A stretch of DNA of 64,000 nt, taken from NCBI RefSeq assembly GCF_044324875.1, contig NZ_CP172185.1; one strand, written 5' to 3'. This document shows, one piece after another, positions 1,315 to 63,952 of this stretch. A program made the position numbers and the translations under genes. Each line of letters opens with the position of its first letter. Positions within the stretch are counted from its first letter, which is position 1. The DNA is from Escherichia coli. Lineage in GTDB: Bacteria > Pseudomonadota > Gammaproteobacteria > Enterobacterales > Enterobacteriaceae. Below the pieces are notes generated by a model that saw only the letters and a list, made by a program, of their open reading frames with translations, searched no databases and was not told where the DNA came from.

Positions 1315-2724
1315 ATGTCCGCTGAACACGTACTGACGATGCTGAACGAGCACGAAGTGAAGTTTGTTGATTTGCGCTTCACCGATACCAAAGGTAAAGA
1401 ACAGCACGTCACTATCCCTGCTCATCAGGTGAATGCTGAATTCTTCGAAGAAGGCAAAATGTTTGACGGCTCCTCGATTGGCGGCTGGAAAGGCATTAAC
1501 GAATCCGATATGGTGCTGATGCCAGACGCATCCACCGCAGTGATTGACCCGTTCTTCGCCGATTCTACCCTGATTATCCGTTGCGACATCCTTGAACCTG
1601 GCACCCTGCAAGGCTATGACCGTGACCCGCGCTCTATTGCGAAGCGCGCTGAAGATTACCTGCGTTCCACTGGCATTGCCGACACCGTACTGTTCGGGCC
1701 AGAACCTGAATTCTTCCTGTTCGATGACATCCGTTTCGGATCTTCTATCTCCGGTTCCCACGTTGCTATCGACGATATCGAAGGCGCATGGAACTCCTCC
1801 ACCCAATACGAAGGTGGTAACAAAGGTCACCGTCCGGCAGTGAAAGGCGGTTACTTCCCGGTTCCGCCGGTAGACTCTGCTCAGGATATTCGTTCTGAAA
1901 TGTGTCTGGTGATGGAACAGATGGGTCTGGTGGTTGAAGCCCATCACCACGAAGTAGCGACTGCTGGTCAGAACGAAGTGGCTACCCGCTTCAATACCAT
2001 GACCAAAAAAGCTGACGAAATTCAGATCTACAAATATGTTGTGCACAACGTAGCGCACCGCTTCGGTAAAACCGCGACCTTTATGCCAAAACCGATGTTC
2101 GGTGATAACGGCTCCGGTATGCACTGCCACATGTCGCTGTCTAAAAACGGCGTTAACCTGTTCGCAGGCGACAAATACGCAGGTCTGTCTGAGCAGGCGC
2201 TGTACTACATTGGCGGCGTAATCAAACACGCTAAAGCGATTAACGCCCTGGCAAACCCGACCACCAACTCTTACAAGCGTCTGGTCCCGGGCTACGAAGC
2301 ACCGGTAATGCTGGCTTACTCTGCGCGTAACCGTTCTGCGTCTATCCGTATTCCGGTGGTTTCTTCTCCGAAAGCACGTCGTATCGAAGTACGTTTCCCG
2401 GATCCGGCGGCTAACCCGTACCTGTGCTTTGCTGCCCTGCTGATGGCCGGTCTTGATGGTATCAAGAACAAGATCCATCCGGGCGAAGCCATGGACAAAA
2501 ACCTGTATGACCTGCCGCCGGAAGAAGCGAAAGAGATCCCACAGGTTGCTGGTTCTCTGGAAGAAGCACTGAACGAACTGGATCTGGACCGCGAGTTCCT
2601 GAAAGCCGGTGGCGTGTTCACTGATGAAGCGATCGATGCGTACATCGCTCTGCGTCGCGAAGAAGATGACCGCGTACGTATGACTCCGCATCCGGTAGAG
2701 TTTGAGCTGTACTACAGCGTCTAA
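1315..2724 (+). CDS. glnA: Glutamine synthetase
   Basis: 469-aa [34 protein letters not shown]...; recognised as GlnA. Confidence 0.97.
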
Positions 2725-2784
2725 TAGTTGAAGTTGTACTACCCGGCGCAACAACGCCGGGATTTAGTTGCCGTGGAAACTTTC

Positions 2785-2810
2785 AGCCCATCTCTGCATG
2801 GGCTTTTTTC
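2785..2810 (+). terminator. Intrinsic terminator after glnA
   Basis: GC stem gcccat/atgggc followed by tttttt. Confidence 0.55.
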
Positions 2811-2854
2811 TCCGTCAATTCTCTGATGCTTCGCGCTTTTTATCCGTAAAAAGC

Positions 2855-2876
2855 TATAATGCACTAAAATGGTGCA
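2855..2876 (+). promoter_or_regulatory. glnL promoter with overlapping NtrC operator
   Basis: tataat -10 hexamer abutting the dyad tgcactaaaatggtgca, 20 bp upstream of glnL. Confidence 0.5.
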
Positions 2877-2897
2877 ACCTGTTCAGGAGACTGCTTT

Positions 2898-3947
2898 ATG
2901 GCAACAGGCACGCAGCCCGATGCTGGGCAGATCCTCAACTCGCTGATTAACAGTATTTTGTTAATCGATGACAACCTGGCGATCCATTACGCCAACCCCG
3001 CCGCGCAACAACTGCTCGCCCAAAGCTCCCGCAAATTGTTTGGTACGCCGTTACCGGAACTGTTGAGCTACTTCTCATTAAATATCGAGCTGATGCAAGA
3101 AAGTCTGGAGGCGGGGCAAGGCTTTACCGATAACGAAGTGACGCTGGTCATCGACGGGCGCTCGCATATCCTTTCTGTGACGGCCCAGCGTATGCCGGAC
3201 GGCATGATCCTGCTGGAGATGGCTCCGATGGATAACCAGCGCCGCTTAAGTCAGGAACAGCTACAGCACGCCCAGCAGGTTGCTGCCCGTGATTTAGTGC
3301 GCGGCCTGGCACATGAGATTAAAAATCCGCTTGGCGGTTTACGGGGCGCGGCGCAGCTGCTCAGCAAAGCATTACCTGACCCGTCACTACTCGAATATAC
3401 CAAAGTGATTATCGAACAGGCGGACCGGCTGCGAAATCTGGTCGACCGTCTGTTGGGGCCGCAGCTGCCCGGTACGCGCGTTACCGAAAGTATTCATAAA
3501 GTGGCTGAACGCGTGGTGACGCTGGTGTCGATGGAACTGCCGGACAACGTGCGGTTGATTCGTGATTACGACCCCAGCCTGCCGGAACTGGCGCACGACC
3601 CGGATCAAATTGAGCAAGTGCTCCTGAATATTGTGCGCAATGCGCTACAGGCGCTGGGGCCAGAGGGTGGTGAAATCATTCTGCGTACCCGCACAGCTTT
3701 CCAACTGACCTTACACGGCGAGCGTTATCGGCTGGCGGCGCGAATTGATGTGGAAGATAACGGGCCAGGTATTCCGCCTCATTTGCAGGATACGCTGTTT
3801 TACCCGATGGTCAGCGGCCGCGAAGGTGGCACCGGGCTTGGCTTATCCATCGCCCGTAATTTGATTGATCAGCATTCAGGCAAAATTGAATTTACCAGTT
3901 GGCCAGGTCATACCGAGTTCTCGGTTTACCTGCCTATCAGGAAATAA
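2898..3947 (+). CDS. glnL: Nitrogen regulation sensor histidine kinase NtrB (NRII)
   Basis: 349-aa ORF with H-box [11 protein letters not shown] and ATPase G-box GTGLGL. Confidence 0.96.
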
Positions 3948-3958
3948 AGGTGACGTTT

Positions 3959-5368
3959 ATGCAACGAGGGATAGTCTGGGTAGTCGATGACGATAGTTCC
4001 ATCCGTTGGGTGCTTGAACGTGCGCTCGCTGGAGCGGGTTTAACCTGTACGACATTTGAGAACGGCGCGGAGGTACTGGAGGCGCTGGCGAGCAAAACGC
4101 CGGATGTGCTGCTTTCAGATATCCGTATGCCGGGAATGGACGGGCTGGCGCTGCTCAAGCAGATTAAACAGCGCCATCCGATGCTTCCGGTCATCATTAT
4201 GACCGCACATTCCGATCTGGATGCTGCCGTCAGCGCCTATCAACAAGGGGCGTTTGATTATCTGCCCAAACCGTTTGATATCGACGAAGCCGTGGCGCTG
4301 GTTGAGCGCGCCATCAGCCATTATCAGGAACAGCAGCAGCCGCGTAATGTTCAGCTTAACGGCCCAACGACCGATATCATCGGCGAAGCGCCAGCCATGC
4401 AGGACGTGTTCCGGATTATCGGTCGGCTTTCGCGTTCTTCTATTAGCGTGCTGATTAACGGCGAGTCCGGCACCGGTAAAGAACTGGTCGCTCATGCCCT
4501 TCATCGCCACAGCCCGCGAGCCAAAGCGCCATTTATCGCGCTCAATATGGCGGCTATCCCGAAGGATTTGATCGAATCCGAACTGTTTGGTCACGAGAAA
4601 GGCGCGTTTACCGGCGCGAATACCATTCGTCAGGGGCGTTTTGAACAGGCTGATGGTGGCACATTATTCCTCGATGAAATTGGCGATATGCCGCTGGATG
4701 TGCAGACGCGTTTGCTGCGCGTGCTGGCAGACGGTCAGTTTTATCGCGTTGGCGGCTATGCGCCGGTGAAAGTGGATGTGCGGATTATCGCTGCCACTCA
4801 CCAGAATCTTGAACAGCGGGTGCAGGAAGGTAAGTTCCGTGAGGATCTGTTCCACCGCCTGAACGTTATCCGCGTTCATCTGCCGCCGCTGCGTGAGCGT
4901 CGGGAAGATATTCCCCGCCTGGCGCGCCATTTTTTACAGGTTGCCGCGCGCGAACTGGGCGTAGAAGCGAAGTTGCTGCATCCGGAAACCGAAGCCGCGC
5001 TGACGCGTCTGGCGTGGCCAGGCAACGTGCGCCAGCTGGAAAACACCTGTCGCTGGCTAACGGTGATGGCCGCCGGGCAGGAAGTGTTGATTCAGGATTT
5101 GCCCGGTGAACTGTTTGAATCAAACGTACCGGAAAGCACTTCACACATGCAGCCGGACAGTTGGGCAACACTGTTAGCACAGTGGGCAGATCGGGCGCTG
5201 CGTTCCGGTCATCAAAACCTGCTTTCCGAAGCACAGCCAGAGCTGGAACGGACGTTACTGACCACCGCGCTGCGACATACGCAGGGGCATAAACAGGAAG
5301 CGGCGCGGCTACTCGGCTGGGGGCGTAACACTCTGACGCGGAAGTTAAAAGAGCTGGGGATGGAGTGA
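3959..5368 (+). CDS. glnG: sigma54-dependent response regulator NtrC (NRI)
   Basis: Start placed at [12 protein letters not shown] (receiver domain) inside the longer track ORF; AAA+ motif GESGTGKE and C-terminal HTH present. Confidence 0.95.
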
Positions 5369-5479
5369 TTCACGGCTTGTGTGTAAAGATTGATTATTGA
5401 GCGCAAATTGCTGGTATTTTGCGCTTTACTGTTCCGATAAGTTCAGTATGATCTTGCCCGGAAAACGGGGAGAGTCATT

Positions 5480-5590
5480 ATGCTGGAATCAATAATTAAT
5501 CTGGTATCGAGTGGCGCAGTTGACAGCCACACACCGCAAACTGCCGTTGCTGCCGTGCTGTGTGCCGCAATGATTGGGCTGTTTAGTTGA
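5480..5590 (+). CDS. yshB: Small protein YshB (36 aa)
   Basis: Short ORF MLESIINLVSSGAVDSHTPQTAVAAVLCAAMIGLFS recalled as the small K-12 gene between glnG and hemN. Confidence 0.5.
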   Translation: MLESIINLVSSGAVDSHTPQTAVAAVLCAAMIGLFS

Positions 5591-5622
5591 GTTTCAGATT
5601 GCTGATGAAGTGCTCTTTGTTC

Positions 5623-5713
5623 ATGCCGGATGCGGCGTGAACGCCTTATCCGGCCTACAAAAGCAATATTTTCAACAGGTTTTGTAGGCCTGATAAGCGT
5701 AGCGCATCAGGCA
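5623..5713. repeat. REP/BIME palindromic elements
   Basis: gccggatgcggcgtgaacgccttatccggcctac ... gtaggcctgataagcgtagcgcatcaggc. Confidence 0.75.
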
Positions 5714-5779
5714 ATCTTGTTCTCAGCACATTGATGGCGCTTTCGTTTTCTACTTTGTAAACGAAGCGCCATTCACTAT

Positions 5780-59626: not shown

Positions 59627-59995
59627 GACCGGGACTCCCAATGCTTAAAATATCGGACAGTTCGGTGGGCACACAGAAACAAATTGGGTTTCAGACCATT
59701 AAACAGCCTGACTCAGCGCGACGGGAAAAATTGAGGTCGCTGACAACCGCTAAGGCTATCAGCAAAAAGGGATAGCCTTAGGAGTTGATCCTGGATGACA
59801 GGATAGTGAGCCAGTATCTACTGGGTGTGTCCAAGGCGAATGTCCTCTTAGAGTGATCGTGCGCGCATGTTACGCCAGCAAAATTTTGCCGTCAACACGC
59901 AACAGAACACCACAGAACAATAGTTGAACTTCGCGCTTTTTGGTACTCGTCAAGGTCGCTAACAGGATAAAAAAATCCCACATCCAGGACCTATA

Positions 59996-60760
<765 letters not shown>

Positions 60761-60842
60761 GCATTGTACACTCGAGGAGGCCAGACAAACTGGGACTGGC
60801 TACACAGCTGGAAAATCATCAGATAAATGAAGGGAAACAAAA

Positions 60843-61745
60843 ATGAAAAAAACGCTCGCAACGTTATTTTTATTAACGTGTCTGGGATCATCATCCGCCT
60901 ATGCGGATAACGCTCTGATTTTACAAACTGATTTTAGCCTGAAAGATGGTGCCGTCTCGGCGATGAAAGGGGTCGCATTCGGCGTTGACCATAATCTTAA
61001 AATCTTTGATTTAACACACGAAATTCCACCGTATAACATCTGGGAAGGCGCTTATCGTCTGTATCAGACTGCCAGTTACTGGCCGCAAGGTTCGGTGTTT
61101 GTTAGCGTGGTCGATCCGGGCGTAGGCACTGACCGTAAATCGGTAGTGCTGAAAACCAAAAACGGTCAATACTTCGTTTCACCAGATAACGGTACGCTCA
61201 CTTTGGTGGCACAAACTCTGGGTATTGATAGCGTCCGGGAAATCGACGAAAAAGCTAACCGCCTGAAAGGTTCTGAAAAGTCATATACCTTCCACGGTCG
61301 TGATGTGTATGCCTACACCGGTGCGCGTCTGGCTTCCGGGGCGATTACGTTCGAACAGGTGGGGCCAGAGCTTCCTGCAAAAGTTGTCGAACTTTCTTAT
61401 CAGAAAGCCAAAGCAACAAAAGGTGAAGTGAAGGGCAATATCCCGATTCTCGATATTCAGTACGGCAACGTCTGGAGCAATATCAGCGACGAGTTGCTGA
61501 ATCAGGCAGGAATCAAACTCAACGACACGTTGTGTGTGACCATTTCCGAAGGTTCCCAGCAAAAATACGCAGGGAAAATGCCGTATGTCGCAAGCTTCGG
61601 CGATGTGCCGGAAGGCCAGCCGATGGTGTATCTGAACAGCTTGTTGAATGTTTCCGTGGCGCTGAATATGGATAATTTCGCGCAGAAACATCAGGTTACG
61701 TCTGGTGCTGACTGGAATATTGATGTGAAGAAGTGCGCTAAGTAA
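60843..61745 (+). CDS. SAM hydroxide adenosyltransferase (DUF62)-like protein with N-terminal signal peptide
   Basis: 300-aa ORF; MKKTLATLFLLTCLGSSSAYA looks like a Sec signal peptide; the mature part fits the DUF62 pattern (LQTDFSLKDGAVSAMKGV...VVDPGVGTDRK...SPDNGTL). Confidence 0.7.
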   Translation: MKKTLATLFLLTCLGSSSAYADNALILQTDFSLKDGAVSAMKGVAFGVDHNLKIFDLTHEIPPYNIWEGAYRLYQTASYWPQGSVFVSVVDPGVGTDRKSVVLKTKNGQYFVSPDNGTLTLVAQTLGIDSVREIDEKANRLKGSEKSYTFHGRDVYAYTGARLASGAITFEQVGPELPAKVVELSYQKAKATKGEVKGNIPILDIQYGNVWSNISDELLNQAGIKLNDTLCVTISEGSQQKYAGKMPYVASFGDVPEGQPMVYLNSLLNVSVALNMDNFAQKHQVTSGADWNIDVKKCAK

Positions 61746-61756
61746 GGTGCTGATGC

Positions 61757-61787
61757 GGGATGCGGTGTGGCGCACCGCATCCCGCAA
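61757..61787. repeat. REP-like palindrome / bidirectional terminator
   Basis: gcgggatgcggtg tggcg caccgcatcccgc between the convergent DUF62 gene and uvrD. Confidence 0.6.
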
Positions 61788-61789
61788 CG

Positions 61790-63952
61790 TCACACCGTCT
61801 CCAACCGGGCGTAAGCCGCCACCAGCCATTTAATACCCTGGCCCTGGAATGCCACCTGCAAACGGCTATGCTCACCGCTGCCTTCCATATTGACGATGGT
61901 GCCTTCACCAAACTTAGCGTGGCGTACGCGCTGGCCGAGCTTGTAGCCGCTGTCGTTCTCGACCATCGGCGTACCCATCCGTTGATGGCTGACCGGGCGG
62001 CTTACCGTGGCGCGCAGGCGCACCTCTTCCACACACTCTTCCGGCAGCTCGCCGATAAAGCGCGACGGGCGATGGTAAACCTCTTTGCCATACAGACGGC
62101 GGGTTTCCGCGTAGGTCAGCGTCAGTTTCTGCATCGCGCGGGTTACGCCAACGTAGGCCAGACGGCGTTCTTCTTCCAGACGTCCGCCTTCATCCAGCGA
62201 CATCTGGCTTGGGAACATGCCCTCTTCCATACCGACGATAAACACCTGCGGGAACTCCAGACCTTTCGCCGAGTGTAGCGTCATCAACTGCACCGCATCC
62301 TGCCAGGTATCCGCCTGCCCTTCACCTGCTTCCAGTGCCGCATGGGAGAGGAACGCCTGCAGCGGCATTAAATCTTCGTCTTCTTCGTTGTAGCTGAACT
62401 GGCGCGTCGCCGTCACCAGTTCCTCTAAGTTTTCGATACGCGTCTGGCCTTTTTCGCCCTTCTCCTGCTCGTACATGGTGCGCAGGCCGGAGTCTTTAAT
62501 GACCCGGTCAGTCTGTACATGCAGCGGCATATCGGCAGTTTCCTGCGCTAAGGCGTCGATCAGTTCCATAAACCGTTGCAAGGCACTGGCAGCACGTCCG
62601 GCGAGGGCTTTTTCCTGCAACAGTTCACGACATGCCTGCCAGAGTGTTAACTGGCGATCGCGCGATGTCTGACGTACCACGTCCAGCGTCCGGTCACCAA
62701 TACCCCGCGTTGGCGTATTCACCACGCGCTCAAAGGCCGCGTCGTCGTTGCGGTTGGCAATCAGGCGCAGATATGAGAGCGCGTCTTTGATTTCCTGGCG
62801 TTCGAAGAAGCGCATCCCGCCGTAAATACGGTACGGCATACTCGCCTGCAACAGTGCTTCTTCCAGCACGCGCGACTGGGCGTTGCTGCGGTAGAGAATG
62901 GCGCACTCGGCGAGCGCCCCGCCGTTATCCTGCCAGGTCTTGATACGGTTAACCACAAAACGCGCTTCGTCGAGTTCGTTAAAAGCGCAATAGAGGGAAA
63001 TCGGCTCACCGTCCGCGCCATCGGTCCACAGTTTTTTACCCAGACGCCCGTTGTTGTTTTCAATCAGGGCGTTCGCGGCGCTCAGAATATTGCTGGTAGA
63101 GCGGTAGTTCTGCTCCAGACGGATAGTTTCAGCACCGGGGAAATCATTGAGAAAACGCTGAATATTCTCGACCTGCGCCCCACGCCAGCCGTAGATTGAC
63201 TGGTCGTCATCACCGACGATCATCACTTTGCCGGTGTCGCCCGCCAGCAGGCGGATCCACGCGTACTGAATGTTGTTGGTATCCTGGAATTCGTCCACCA
63301 GGATGTTGGTAAAACGTTCGCGGTAGTGTTGCAGGATATGCGGCTTGTTAAGCCACAACTCGTGAGCGCGCAGCAGCAGCTCGGCGAAGTCCACCAGGCC
63401 CGCACGATCGCACGCTTCCTGATACGCCTGATACACCTTCTGCCAGGTCTGCTCCACCGGGTTACCGTAGCTTTGAATATGATGCGGACGCAGGCCTTCA
63501 TCTTTCTGGCTGTTGATGTACCACATTGCCTGGCGCGGCGGCCACTGCTTCTCGTCGAGGTTCATAGCTTTGATCAGACGCTTAAGCAGGCGTAGCTGGT
63601 CTTCACTGTCGAGGATCTGGAAATCCTGCGGCAGATTGGCGTCCATATGGTGCGCACGCAGCAAACGGTGCGCCAGCCCGTGGAAGGTGCCGACCCACAT
63701 GCCGCCCTGGCTGGTGCCCATCAGTTGCCCGATACGATGACGCATCTCCGCCGCCGCTTTGTTGGTAAACGTCACAGCCATAATCGAGTATGGCGAGCAG
63801 TTTTCCACGCTCATCAGCCAGGCGATACGATGCACCAGTACGCGCGTCTTACCACTGCCCGCGCCCGCCAGCACCAGAAGGTTGCTGCGTGGCGCGGCCA
63901 CCGCTTCGCGCTGTTTGTCATTAAGGCTGTCGAGCAGGTAAGAAACGTCCAT
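61790..63952 (-). CDS. uvrD: DNA helicase II
   Basis: ORF with UvrD/Rep helicase motifs (AGAGSGKTRVL, VDEFQDTN); start chosen at MDVSYLLDSLNDKQREAV (720 aa). Confidence 0.97.
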   Translation of the reverse strand: MDVSYLLDSLNDKQREAVAAPRSNLLVLAGAGSGKTRVLVHRIAWLMSVENCSPYSIMAVTFTNKAAAEMRHRIGQLMGTSQGGMWVGTFHGLAHRLLRAHHMDANLPQDFQILDSEDQLRLLKRLIKAMNLDEKQWPPRQAMWYINSQKDEGLRPHHIQSYGNPVEQTWQKVYQAYQEACDRAGLVDFAELLLRAHELWLNKPHILQHYRERFTNILVDEFQDTNNIQYAWIRLLAGDTGKVMIVGDDDQSIYGWRGAQVENIQRFLNDFPGAETIRLEQNYRSTSNILSAANALIENNNGRLGKKLWTDGADGEPISLYCAFNELDEARFVVNRIKTWQDNGGALAECAILYRSNAQSRVLEEALLQASMPYRIYGGMRFFERQEIKDALSYLRLIANRNDDAAFERVVNTPTRGIGDRTLDVVRQTSRDRQLTLWQACRELLQEKALAGRAASALQRFMELIDALAQETADMPLHVQTDRVIKDSGLRTMYEQEKGEKGQTRIENLEELVTATRQFSYNEEDEDLMPLQAFLSHAALEAGEGQADTWQDAVQLMTLHSAKGLEFPQVFIVGMEEGMFPSQMSLDEGGRLEEERRLAYVGVTRAMQKLTLTYAETRRLYGKEVYHRPSRFIGELPEECVEEVRLRATVSRPVSHQRMGTPMVENDSGYKLGQRVRHAKFGEGTIVNMEGSGEHSRLQVAFQGQGIKWLVAAYARLETV

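What the first reader, a model, noticed from the sequence alone, without database searches (positions are those of the whole stretch)
60843..61745. Signal-peptide-bearing SAM hydroxide adenosyltransferase (DUF62)-like gene between yigE and uvrD, possibly accessory
As I recall the K-12 order, yigE is directly followed by uvrD; here a 300-aa ORF sits between them. Its mature part fits the DUF62 SAM-cleaving family (fluorinase/chlorinase/SAM hydrolase relatives), which are usually cytoplasmic, yet it starts with a classic signal peptide, implying a periplasmic SAM-related enzyme. I am not certain K-12 lacks this gene.
Basis: partly seen in the sequence, partly recalled or inferred. Interest (0 to 1): 0.5.

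Follow-up and report, generated by a model that had tools for sequence, protein, structure and literature searches.

The report
Exported SAM hydrolase shared with Helicobacter
This E. coli gene encodes a SAM-cleaving enzyme that, unusually, appears to be exported from the cytoplasm; K-12 lacks it, and Helicobacter pylori carries an almost identical copy, which points to gene transfer between two very distant bacteria.

Summary
Window 60843-61745 (+) is a real 300-aa gene in E. coli 042 between yigE and uvrD. It matches both Pfam DUF62 domains (SAM_HAT_N 3.6e-53, SAM_HAT_C 2.1e-18) and models confidently (pLDDT 92.9, TM 0.85-0.90 to solved DUF62 structures). It keeps the hydrolase-specific Asp91-Arg98-His151 triad that halogenases lack.

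The 21-residue N-terminus looks like a Sec signal peptide (MKK, hydrophobic core, AYA|DN). Similar leaders occur in 79 of 80 relatives from many phyla. The nearest leaderless homologues (Listeria, Enterococcus, Staphylococcus; 45-48% identity) start directly at the domain. Cys231 and Cys298 co-vary perfectly (23 both, 44 neither), as a periplasmic disulfide would.

The gene is in 2413 of 5426 complete E. coli genomes. K-12 has a 146-bp REP-containing spacer instead. Its synonymous divergence matches flanking uvrD, so it is old at this site and was lost secondarily.

Unexpectedly, the closest homologue outside Escherichia/Shigella is H. pylori HP0709: 91% amino-acid identity without gaps and 84% DNA identity, against 51% for UvrA. 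The pair sits inside a gammaproteobacterial clade, which indicates inter-phylum transfer.

The most likely function is periplasmic cleavage of SAM into importable adenosine and methionine. This is inferred, not shown.

The parts
60843..61745 (+). Complete CDS (300 codons plus TAA) of an exported DUF62 / SAM hydrolase-family protein (RefSeq WP_000751630.1)
   Evidence: ORF list; Pfam SAM_HAT_N and SAM_HAT_C; RefSeq annotation in E. coli 042
60830..60835 (+). Shine-Dalgarno-like AAGGGA, 7 nt upstream of the ATG
   Evidence: Sequence read directly. It lies inside the stretch that is also conserved with H. pylori.
60843..60905 (+). Predicted Sec signal peptide, residues 1-21 (MKKTLATLFLLTCLGSSSAYA), with predicted cleavage before Asp22
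   Evidence: Tripartite pattern by inspection. Equivalent leaders occur in 79/80 relatives and in 44/71 near-full-length family representatives. Leaderless homologues start at the domain.
60906..61742 (+). Mature enzyme, residues 22-300 (both DUF62 domains plus a short C-terminal tail bearing Cys298)
   Evidence: AlphaFold2 model, pLDDT 92.9, pTM 0.87. Foldseek TM 0.85-0.90 to 2zbu, SalL and PH0463.
61113..61115 (+). Asp91 codon, triad residue (= PH0463 Asp68)
   Evidence: Alignment to 1wu8/2wr8; invariant in 67/67 clade members
61134..61136 (+). Arg98 codon, triad residue (= PH0463 Arg75; the aligned residue differs, R in 2f4n versus Q in 22uy, in the MJ1651 entry titled 'mutant-R89A')
   Evidence: invariant in 67/67
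61293..61295 (+). His151 codon, triad residue (= PH0463 His127)
   Evidence: His in 62/67 clade members
61533..61535 (+). Cys231 codon, partner of a predicted disulfide
   Evidence: Perfect co-variation with Cys298: 23 sequences have both, 44 have neither, none has only one
61734..61736 (+). Cys298 codon, partner of a predicted disulfide, in a tail beyond the Pfam SAM_HAT_C match (which ends at residue 291; matches to solved homologues end by 289-293)
60817..61751 (+). Stretch with DNA similarity to H. pylori HP0709 (84.3% over 935 bp); similarity starts 26 bp before the ATG and ends 6 bp after the stop
   Evidence: blastn of window against L083
60761..61763 (.). Segment present in 042 and replaced in K-12-type genomes by a 146-bp REP-containing spacer
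   Evidence: MAFFT and local alignment of K-12 (L001) to the window. The same 54%-coverage pattern appears in all sampled gene-less genomes.
61746..61796 (.). Strong hairpin between the convergent gene and uvrD (-37.8 kcal/mol, z -6.2), REP-like; likely a bidirectional terminator. Its distal arm is shared with K-12.

Best explanation
The gene encodes a Sec-exported member of the DUF62 family of SAM hydroxide adenosyltransferases (SAM hydrolases).

Shown:
- The protein has the family's two domains and its fold.
- It keeps the water-activating Asp91-Arg98-His151 triad, which distinguishes hydrolases from the fluorinase and chlorinase branch.
- It keeps invariant Asp30, Asp204, Asn209 and near-invariant Ser266.
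- It carries a 21-residue leader of signal-peptide type that is a clade-wide trait.
- In its proteobacterial subclade, two perfectly co-varying cysteines (231 and 298) are present.

Inferred:
- The leader is cleaved after Ala21.
- The protein folds in the periplasm, and as a trimer if it behaves like the solved family members.
- A Cys231-Cys298 disulfide pins the C-terminal tail.
- The enzyme attacks C5' of S-adenosylmethionine, or a very similar sulfonium nucleoside, with activated water. This releases adenosine and L-methionine outside the cytoplasm.
- Ordinary nucleoside and methionine transporters then import both products, so the enzyme would serve salvage of external SAM.

History:
- The gene has sat between yigE and uvrD since before E. 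coli split from a sister Escherichia lineage.
- It has been lost from about 55% of sequenced E. coli, including K-12.
- It shares a very recent common origin with HP0709 of H. pylori and H. acinonychis, by horizontal transfer from an Enterobacterales-like lineage.
- H. pylori cannot make purines and grows well on adenosine, so such an enzyme would be especially useful there.
For: Family and fold:
- Pfam hits.
- PDB sequence hits from 1e-43.
- AF2 model with pLDDT 92.9.
- Foldseek TM 0.85-0.90 to 2zbu, SalL and PH0463.

Triad:
- PH0463 D68/R75/H127 align to D91/R98/H151.
- D and R are invariant and H is present in 62/67 members.
- A review states the triad is confined to DUF62 hydrolases and absent from halogenases (PMC10491745).

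Export:
- Leaders in 79/80 relatives across Proteobacteria, Bacteroidota, Verrucomicrobiota, Synergistota, Firmicutes and others.
- Leaders or lipoboxes in 44 of 71 near-full-length 50%-cluster representatives.
- The nearest leaderless homologues begin MTKQLLVLQSDF or MAGFLVVQTDF.
- The Cys231/Cys298 pair co-varies 23:0:44.
- HP0709 is listed in an H. pylori outer-membrane-vesicle proteome (PMC8756444). Anti-HP0709 serum antibody is listed among the gastric-lesion markers compiled in a review (PMC11394471).

E. coli history:
- 2413/5426 genomes carry the gene, always at this locus.
- dS of the gene (0.18-0.37) equals that of uvrD (0.14-0.36) for the same strains, including Escherichia sp. MOD1.

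Transfer:
- 91% aa identity over 300 residues without gaps and 84% nt identity.
- By contrast, UvrA is 51% identical and uvrD's neighbour-gene DNA aligns at 65% over only 29% of its length.
- The Ec+Hp clade has 100% bootstrap support; joined with Edwardsiella, 90%. It is nested among Pasteurellaceae and Aeromonas.
- No homologue above 76% identity was found in any other species representative.

Physiology:
- H. pylori lacks de novo purine synthesis. It uses adenosine efficiently through a NupC homologue (PMC3368855).
- The gene rose 2.87-fold in H. pylori biofilm, in the same list as metI (PMC6212823).
Against: - No activity, localisation or substrate has been measured for any exported member.
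- The signal peptide was judged by inspection, because no dedicated predictor was available.
- The OMV proteome that lists HP0709 also lists ribosomal proteins, so it is weak localisation evidence.
- Scores against NCBIfam's (R)-SAM hydrolase equivalog models are far below cut-off (131.5 against 350; 117 against 470). Substrate or stereochemistry may therefore differ from the characterised enzymes.
- No transporter or salvage gene is a conserved neighbour across taxa.
- No MetJ or PurR box occurs anywhere in the window.
- SAM is chemically labile, and nothing here shows how much of it is available outside cells.
- Direction and date of the E. coli/H. pylori transfer are unresolved. dS between the two is about 1.06, against at most 0.56 within H. 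pylori and at most 0.37 within Escherichia. An unsampled third donor remains possible.
Confidence: 0.6

Rival explanations
1. The protein is exported, but its physiological substrate is not SAM. It would act on another 5'-substituted adenosine met outside the cell. Candidates include decarboxylated SAM, SAM-like antimetabolites or toxins, 5'-halo-5'-deoxyadenosines, or another compound with a good leaving group. Its role would then be detoxification or degradation of a signal rather than nutrition.
For: - Scores against the (R)-SAM hydrolase equivalog models are well below cut-off.
- The Arg that pairs with the methionine carboxylate in the halogenases (from memory: FlA R270, SalL R243) is Leu267 in this clade (alignment).
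- The exported clade is separated from the leaderless enzymes by at least 50% sequence divergence.
- No SAM- or methionine-linked neighbours or regulatory boxes were found.
Against: - The residues that hold the ribose, the adenine and the methionine amino group in solved family members (Asp30, Asp204, Asn209, Ser266 here) are invariant or nearly so.
- The carboxylate Arg is also missing from the T. maritima homologue, so its absence is not specific to this clade.
- The SN2 chemistry of this fold needs a sulfonium-type leaving group, as in SAM.
Confidence: 0.2
2. The N-terminal hydrophobic stretch is not a functional export signal, or the start codon is mis-assigned. The protein would then act in the cytoplasm like other DUF62 enzymes, clearing the inactive (R,S)-SAM epimer.
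For: - All characterised DUF62 hydrolases are cytoplasmic, and their proposed role is (R)-SAM clearance (10.1101/2025.08.29.672840; PMC10491745).
- No experimental localisation exists for the E. coli protein.
Against: - The leader is conserved in type, though not in sequence, in 79/80 relatives from many phyla. It always ends just before the conserved ALVxQTDF strand.
- Several relatives have lipoprotein boxes instead.
- No in-frame ATG lies between residue 1 and the domain start in E. coli.
- The Cys pair co-varies as a disulfide would.
- The leader itself is preserved between E. coli and H. pylori.
- Leaderless relatives form the outgroup.
Confidence: 0.08
3. It is a halogenase (adenosyl-chloride synthase), as automatic annotation names HP0709. 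It would use the abundant chloride of the stomach or gut to make 5'-chloro-5'-deoxyadenosine.
For: - HP0709 is labelled 'adenosyl-chloride synthase / salL' in papers that rely on automatic annotation (PMC6090961; PMC6212823).
- SalL is among the best structural matches (TM 0.86).
- Gly152 matches SalL Gly131.
Against: - The Asp-Arg-His triad that halogenases lack is fully present (PMC10491745).
- SalL has Tyr70 where this protein has Asp91, and Tyr where it has His151 (alignment).
- The score against the TIGR04507 fluorinase model is 84, against a cut-off of 400.
- Identity to SalL is only about 30%.
Confidence: 0.05

Closest known systems
PH0463 of Pyrococcus horikoshii (SAM hydroxide adenosyltransferase; PDB 1wu8, 2wr8)
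   Same: Same two-domain fold (TM about 0.80 normalised to the query, 0.87 to the target). The catalytic Asp-Arg-His triad aligns residue for residue. The same DPGVGTxR and FHGRD motifs are present.
   Different: About 30% identity. PH0463 starts at the domain with no leader, lacks the Cys pair and the C-terminal tail, and is cytoplasmic and archaeal.
(R)-SAM hydrolases: StDUF62 (Salinispora), MJ1651 (PDB 2f4n, 22uy), SaciSAMH, HvSAMH
   Same: Same family and triad. These are the only members with a demonstrated reaction (SAM to adenosine plus methionine, selective for the R-sulfonium epimer).
   Different: Scores are below the NCBIfam equivalog cut-offs. Their proposed role, clearing a damaged cofactor inside the cell, cannot apply to a protein exported from the cytoplasm. 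E. coli and H. pylori have no second, cytoplasmic DUF62 copy at the DNA level (one search shows one place per genome).
Thermotoga maritima DUF62 protein (PDB 2zbu/2zbv)
   Same: Closest solved structure: E 1.3e-43, 34% identity, TM 0.85/0.90.
   Different: Uncharacterised, leaderless, and without the cysteine pair.
SalL chlorinase and FlA fluorinase
   Same: Same fold and the same SN2 adenosyl-transfer chemistry at C5' of SAM.
   Different: They lack the triad and exclude water. This protein has the triad, so it is predicted to be a hydrolase.
HP0709 (jhp0648, UniProt O25413) of Helicobacter pylori
   Same: Orthologue: 300 aa, 91% identical without gaps, with the same leader, triad and cysteine pair.
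   Different: It sits in an unrelated genomic context: uvrA, an OMP gene, rsmH, HP0708, then HP0709, then the homA/homB locus and an HD hydrolase. GC is 43% rather than 48%. Its function is also unknown. It is known only as a gastric-cancer GWAS hit, an OMV proteome entry and a seroreactive antigen.

Membership tests
DUF62 superfamily (Pfam SAM_HAT_N + SAM_HAT_C) | Both domains score above Pfam gathering thresholds | tested here: met
   179.7 bits against 26.3, and 66.8 bits against 25.5
DUF62 superfamily (Pfam SAM_HAT_N + SAM_HAT_C) | Two-domain fold of the solved members | tested here: met
   AF2 pLDDT 92.9. The 40 best Foldseek hits are all DUF62, fluorinase or chlorinase chains, with TM up to 0.86/0.91.
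SAM hydroxide adenosyltransferase / SAM hydrolase (adenosine-forming) | Strictly conserved Asp-Arg-His triad that activates water | tested here: met
   D91/R98/H151 align to PH0463 D68/R75/H127 and are conserved in the clade. The definition of the triad comes from PMC10491745.
SAM hydroxide adenosyltransferase / SAM hydrolase (adenosine-forming) | Converts SAM to adenosine plus L-methionine | not testable with these tools
   Needs an enzyme assay with the purified mature protein
(R)-S-adenosyl-L-methionine hydrolase equivalogs (NCBIfam NF058624, NF053629) | Score at or above the curated equivalog cut-off | tested here: not met
   131.5 against 350; 117.1 against 470
(R)-S-adenosyl-L-methionine hydrolase equivalogs (NCBIfam NF058624, NF053629) | Acts in the cytoplasm on the epimerised cofactor pool | tested here: not met
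   Predicted signal peptide, a clade-wide leader and a disulfide-type cysteine pair. Localisation is predicted, not measured.
SAM-dependent halogenases (fluorinase TIGR04507 / SalL-type chlorinase) | Profile score above cut-off, and absence of the hydrolase triad with a halide pocket in its place | tested here: not met
   TIGR04507 scores 84 against 400. The triad is present. SalL Tyr70 corresponds to Asp91 here.
Sec-exported periplasmic proteins | N-terminal signal peptide with a basic n-region, a hydrophobic h-region and an Ala-x-Ala cleavage motif | tested here: met
   MKK / TLATLFLLTCLG / SSSAYA|DN by inspection. This is a heuristic only, not SignalP. There is no twin-arginine motif, and LLTC is not a canonical lipobox.
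Sec-exported periplasmic proteins | Experimentally periplasmic, with the leader cleaved | not testable with these tools
   Only indirect evidence: an OMV proteome entry and seroreactivity for HP0709
Horizontally transferred gene (E. coli / H. pylori pair) | Identity far above that of core genes of the two species, and a phylogeny that conflicts with the species tree | tested here: met
   91% against 51% for UvrA. The Ec+Hp clade has 100% bootstrap support within a gammaproteobacterial group.
Horizontally transferred gene (E. coli / H. pylori pair) | Identified vehicle (plasmid, phage or transposon) or shared flanking DNA | tested here: not met
   Similarity is confined to 60817-61751. No genuine plasmid or phage copy was found. 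The 'Helicobacter phage Pt11444_1' record simply includes bacterial flanks.

The most novel reading that the evidence does not exclude
Exported DUF62 enzymes form a widespread, uncharacterised class of extracytoplasmic SAM-cleaving enzymes. They would let bacteria harvest SAM released by hosts, food or dead cells as adenosine plus methionine. The E. coli/H. pylori gene would then be a niche-adaptive salvage factor passed between two human gut and stomach bacteria of different phyla. In H. pylori, which cannot make purines and (from my own knowledge) also requires methionine, it would contribute to colonisation. That could underlie the reported association of an HP0709 coding variant with gastric cancer risk.
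Probability: 0.3. Interest if true: 0.75.

Novelty: new variant of a known kind. Interest (0 to 1): 0.6.

Why it matters
SAM is treated as a strictly intracellular cofactor. Every characterised DUF62 enzyme is cytoplasmic, and the family's proposed role is cleaning up the inactive SAM epimer. A large, phylogenetically broad clade with export signals implies a different job outside the cytoplasm, and nobody appears to have tested one.

The hypothesis is directly testable. E. coli BL21(DE3), the usual expression host, carries the gene and K-12 does not, which gives a ready-made isogenic contrast.

The near-identity with H. pylori HP0709 is one of the clearest single-gene transfers between Enterobacterales and Campylobacterota that one could ask for. 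HP0709 is itself a gene of unknown function, flagged by a gastric-cancer GWAS and by serology.

Tried and rejected
- **Conserved neighbours.** I clustered the three genes on each side of the gene in 68 of the 80 related loci. Recurrent neighbours are confined to Aeromonas genus-level synteny. No transporter or salvage gene travels with the gene across taxa.
- **Regulatory boxes.** MetJ (tandem metbox) and PurR consensus searches with up to 3 mismatches found nothing in the whole window. The sigma-70 scan shows no promoter-like site in the 82-bp yigE-gene spacer. The gene may be co-transcribed with yigE or have a weak promoter.
- **Remnant of the gene in K-12.** Local alignment of the K-12 spacer to the 042 segment scores no better than shuffles, apart from the shared hairpin arm. 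The junction itself does not distinguish insertion from deletion. The dS comparison settled that instead.
- **Mobile-element vehicle.** tblastn against plasmids and phages found the following:
  - The 'plasmid' hits from E. coli and Aeromonas are mislabelled chromosomes.
  - The Enterococcus plasmid copies are 47% identical and leaderless.
  - The Helicobacter 'phage' record contains bacterial flanks.
  - 'DUF62' prefix matches were mostly false (DUF6249, DUF6242, DUF6268).
  - No paper was found on exported DUF62 proteins or on the E. coli/H. pylori relationship.
  - The Kornfuehrer 2020 paper is not held.
- **Corrected note.** My early note that the gene's within-E. coli dS is unusually high was wrong. 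Flanking uvrD is equally diverged.
- **Lipoprotein reading of 'LLTC'.** Rejected. Thr at position -1 is non-canonical, and the Cys is absent in H. pylori SA213A, H. acinonychis and Aeromonas.
Full report
**1. The observation**

Window 60843-61745 (+) is an ATG-to-TAA ORF of 300 codons. An AAGGGA ribosome-binding motif lies 7 nt upstream. The window is 100% identical to E. coli 042. RefSeq annotates this ORF there as WP_000751630.1, 'SAM hydrolase/SAM-dependent halogenase family protein', between yigE and the convergent uvrD. In K-12 MG1655, yigE is followed by a 146-bp spacer containing a REP-type element, then by uvrD.

**2. What the protein is**

- It matches both Pfam DUF62 domains: SAM_HAT_N at 3.6e-53 and SAM_HAT_C at 2.1e-18.
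- Sixteen distinct PDB sequences match, all of them DUF62 proteins, chlorinases or fluorinases (one, 7ccg, is mislabelled as an RNA polymerase subunit in the PDB sequence file). The best is the T. maritima protein 2zbu at 1.3e-43.
- An AlphaFold2 model of the mature part, built on 67 relatives, has pLDDT 92.9. It superposes on 2zbu, SalL and PH0463 with TM 0.80-0.90.
- The triad that defines the hydrolase branch is present. PH0463 Asp68/Arg75/His127 align to Asp91/Arg98/His151.
- In the clade, Asp and Arg are invariant and His is present in 62 of 67 members.
- A review states that this triad occurs only in DUF62 hydrolases and that the halogenases lack it (PMC10491745). SalL has Tyr where this protein has Asp91 and His151.
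- Scores against NCBIfam's fluorinase model and its two (R)-SAM hydrolase equivalog models are far below their cut-offs.

I therefore file the protein in the family and on the hydrolase side. I do not file it as an equivalog of the characterised enzymes.

**3. Export**

The first 21 residues are MKK, then TLATLFLLTCLG, then SSSAYA, followed by Asp22. The conserved first strand (ALILQTDF) begins at residue 24. Solved cytoplasmic members begin 2-4 residues before that strand. No SignalP was available, so I tested the idea comparatively.

- In 80 loci from one-genome-per-species representatives encoding relatives at 55-98% identity, 79 have a comparable leader. Each has basic residues, a 9-residue hydrophobic maximum of 1.8-3.9 on the Kyte-Doolittle scale, and small residues just before the strand. 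The leaders differ in sequence, and a few are lipoprotein boxes.
- These loci come from Proteobacteria, Bacteroidota, Verrucomicrobiota, Synergistota, Fusobacteriota, Thermotogota, Planctomycetota and Firmicutes.
- The nearest leaderless homologues are at 45-48% identity, in Listeria, Enterococcus and Staphylococcus. They start MTKQLLVLQSDF, MAGFLVVQTDF and MGNYLVLQSDF. Used as an outgroup, they leave the sampled leader-bearing sequences monophyletic.
- In an exhaustive search of 1.84 billion cluster representatives, the family has 8751 members at E<=1e-3. Of the 71 near-full-length sequences among the best 150, 44 have a leader or lipobox, 22 have none and 5 are ambiguous.
- The mature E. coli protein has exactly two cysteines, 231 and 298. 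Across 67 clade members, 23 have both, 44 have neither and none has only one. That is the pattern expected of a disulfide, and so of an oxidising compartment.

**4. Status in E. coli**

- The gene is in 2413 of 5426 complete genomes, once each and at this locus. Carriers include ST131, O157:H7, O127:H6 and BL21(DE3). Proteins named for Shigella species are also among the closest hits.
- The sampled gene-less genomes all show the K-12-type pattern.
- A third haplotype, in roughly 118 genomes, has the gene but no yigE.
- The K-12 spacer holds no recognisable remnant of the gene.
- Synonymous divergence of the gene among 042, BL21, strain SCPM and Escherichia sp. MOD1-EC7003 is 0.18-0.37. For flanking uvrD in the same strains it is 0.14-0.36.

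The gene has therefore evolved in place for as long as these lineages have been apart. Its absence from K-12 is a secondary loss. It is 'accessory' by loss, not by recent gain.

**5. The unexpected relative**

The best hits outside Escherichia and Shigella are about 90% identical, full-length proteins of Helicobacter pylori and H. acinonychis.

- The H. pylori gene lies between rsmH/HP0708 and the homA/homB locus, near uvrA and rpoN. It is HP0709/jhp0648, UniProt O25413.
- E. coli 042 against the main H. pylori cluster gives 272 of 300 identities with no gaps, leader included.
- DNA identity is 84.3% over window 60817-61751 and stops at the gene's edges.
- As a control, UvrA, a well-conserved core protein whose gene lies about 3 kb from HP0709, is 51% identical between the two species. 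Its DNA aligns at only 65% identity over 29% of its length.
- dN is about 0.05 and dS about 1.06 between the species. dS is at most 0.56 within H. pylori/H. acinonychis and at most 0.37 within Escherichia.
- In neighbour-joining trees with 200 bootstraps, E. coli plus H. pylori form a clade in 100% of replicates. Each species is monophyletic in 92-94%. Edwardsiella joins them in 90%. Pasteurellaceae, Aeromonas, Thorsellia and Neisseriales lie further out.
- No other species representative has a homologue above 76% identity.
- The H. pylori copy has GC3 of 45% against 30-43% for its neighbours. The E. coli copy has GC3 of 52%, like yigE.

The simplest reading is a single-gene transfer from an Escherichia-like enterobacterial lineage into the ancestor of H. 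pylori and H. acinonychis. An unsampled third donor cannot be excluded. The date is open because the two species' clocks differ greatly. No plasmid or phage vehicle was found. A 'Helicobacter phage' record that contains the gene merely includes bacterial flanks of a prophage integrated next to it (PMC11321410).

**6. How it most likely works**

Shown: the fold, the triad, invariant or near-invariant Asp30, Asp204, Asn209 and Ser266, a conserved leader, and a covarying cysteine pair. My assignment of those four residues to contacts with the ribose, the methionine amine, the adenine and the methionine carboxylate comes from memory of the fluorinase and SalL structures.

Inferred: Sec export, cleavage after Ala21, and oxidation of Cys231-Cys298. 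The enzyme would then carry out hydroxide attack on C5' of SAM in the periplasm, giving adenosine and methionine for import.

E. coli and H. pylori have no second DUF62 gene at the DNA level. The cytoplasmic '(R)-SAM repair' role proposed for the family therefore cannot be this protein's job if it is exported.

H. pylori cannot make purines and grows efficiently on adenosine through a NupC homologue (PMC3368855). From my own knowledge, it also requires methionine, and SAM is most stable at acidic pH. Both points would make the stomach a plausible place for SAM salvage. These are leads, not tests.

Several findings weigh against the salvage idea.
- No conserved transporter neighbours were found.
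- No MetJ or PurR boxes were found.
- Nothing here bears on how much SAM is available outside cells.

**7. What is known**

HP0709 appears in the searched literature only in these contexts:
- a gastric-cancer GWAS hit of uncertain function (PMC6090961);
- an entry in an OMV proteome (PMC8756444);
- a seroreactive antigen (PMC11394471);
- a biofilm-induced transcript mislabelled salL (PMC6212823);
- a landmark for PCR primers and for prophage insertion.

I found no paper on exported DUF62 proteins or on the E. coli/H. pylori relationship. The library covers only open-access papers and preprints.

**8. Verdict**

The protein is a new variant (exported) of a known enzyme family, and it is unstudied. 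The additional, well-supported observation is a single-gene inter-phylum transfer linking E. coli and H. pylori. Interest 0.6.

Noticed in passing
L092 (E. coli HD12481) 1-1503; corresponds to window 59790-61745: A third haplotype of the corA-uvrD interval: ysgD, then about 186 bp of unrelated DNA, then the DUF62 gene (94.8% nt identity to 042), then uvrD, with no yigE. Similarity to the window stops at 59903. The difference between 2413 gene-positive genomes and 2295 with the full yigE+gene query suggests about 118 genomes of this type.
   Followed up: partly
L086 (E. coli HS-02) 4915-5772: At the same locus the gene is annotated as a pseudogene (frameshift and internal stop). It is only 80% identical in DNA. 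This is either a decaying copy or an error-rich assembly; yigF in the same record also has an internal stop.
   Followed up: no
L087 (E. coli BL21(DE3)) 2501-3403: BL21(DE3), the standard expression host (BL21 Gold was used to produce recombinant SAM hydrolases in 10.1101/2025.08.29.672840), carries an intact copy of this gene (95% nt identity). K-12 does not.
   Followed up: partly
window 61746-61796: An unusually stable hairpin (-37.8 kcal/mol, z -6.2) sits between the convergent DUF62 gene and uvrD. One arm is shared with the K-12 REP-containing spacer, so the boundary of the presence/absence polymorphism lies inside a REP-like element.
   Followed up: partly
L093 (PQ159899.1, 'Helicobacter phage Pt11444_1') 1-32449: This deposited phage genome includes H. 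pylori chromosomal genes on both sides of the prophage: Fic and an HD hydrolase on one side, and a homB-like gene, HP0709, HP0708, mraW, an OMP gene and uvrA on the other. The record is over-extended. It confirms a prophage insertion hotspot next to HP0709.
   Followed up: partly
window 59996-60760 (yigE): yigE (Pfam NAGPA phosphodiester glycosidase, 2.4e-18) also begins with a signal-peptide-like segment. Its dN among E. coli strains is much higher (0.01-0.03) than that of corA or uvrD (at most 0.003).
   Followed up: no
L011, L014, L017, L018, L026, L030 (Aeromonas loci), 1-3 genes downstream of the homologue: A small exported protein resembling RNase T2/RNase I (my reading of the sequence start ...FDYYALALSWSPQHC) recurs near the Aeromonas homologues. 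This looks like genus-level synteny only.
   Followed up: no
L095 (Enterococcus faecium plasmid NZ_CP034950.1) 289-1128: A leaderless DUF62 gene (47% identical) sits on a 37-kb mobilizable Enterococcus plasmid, next to an ECF riboflavin transporter component.
   Followed up: no
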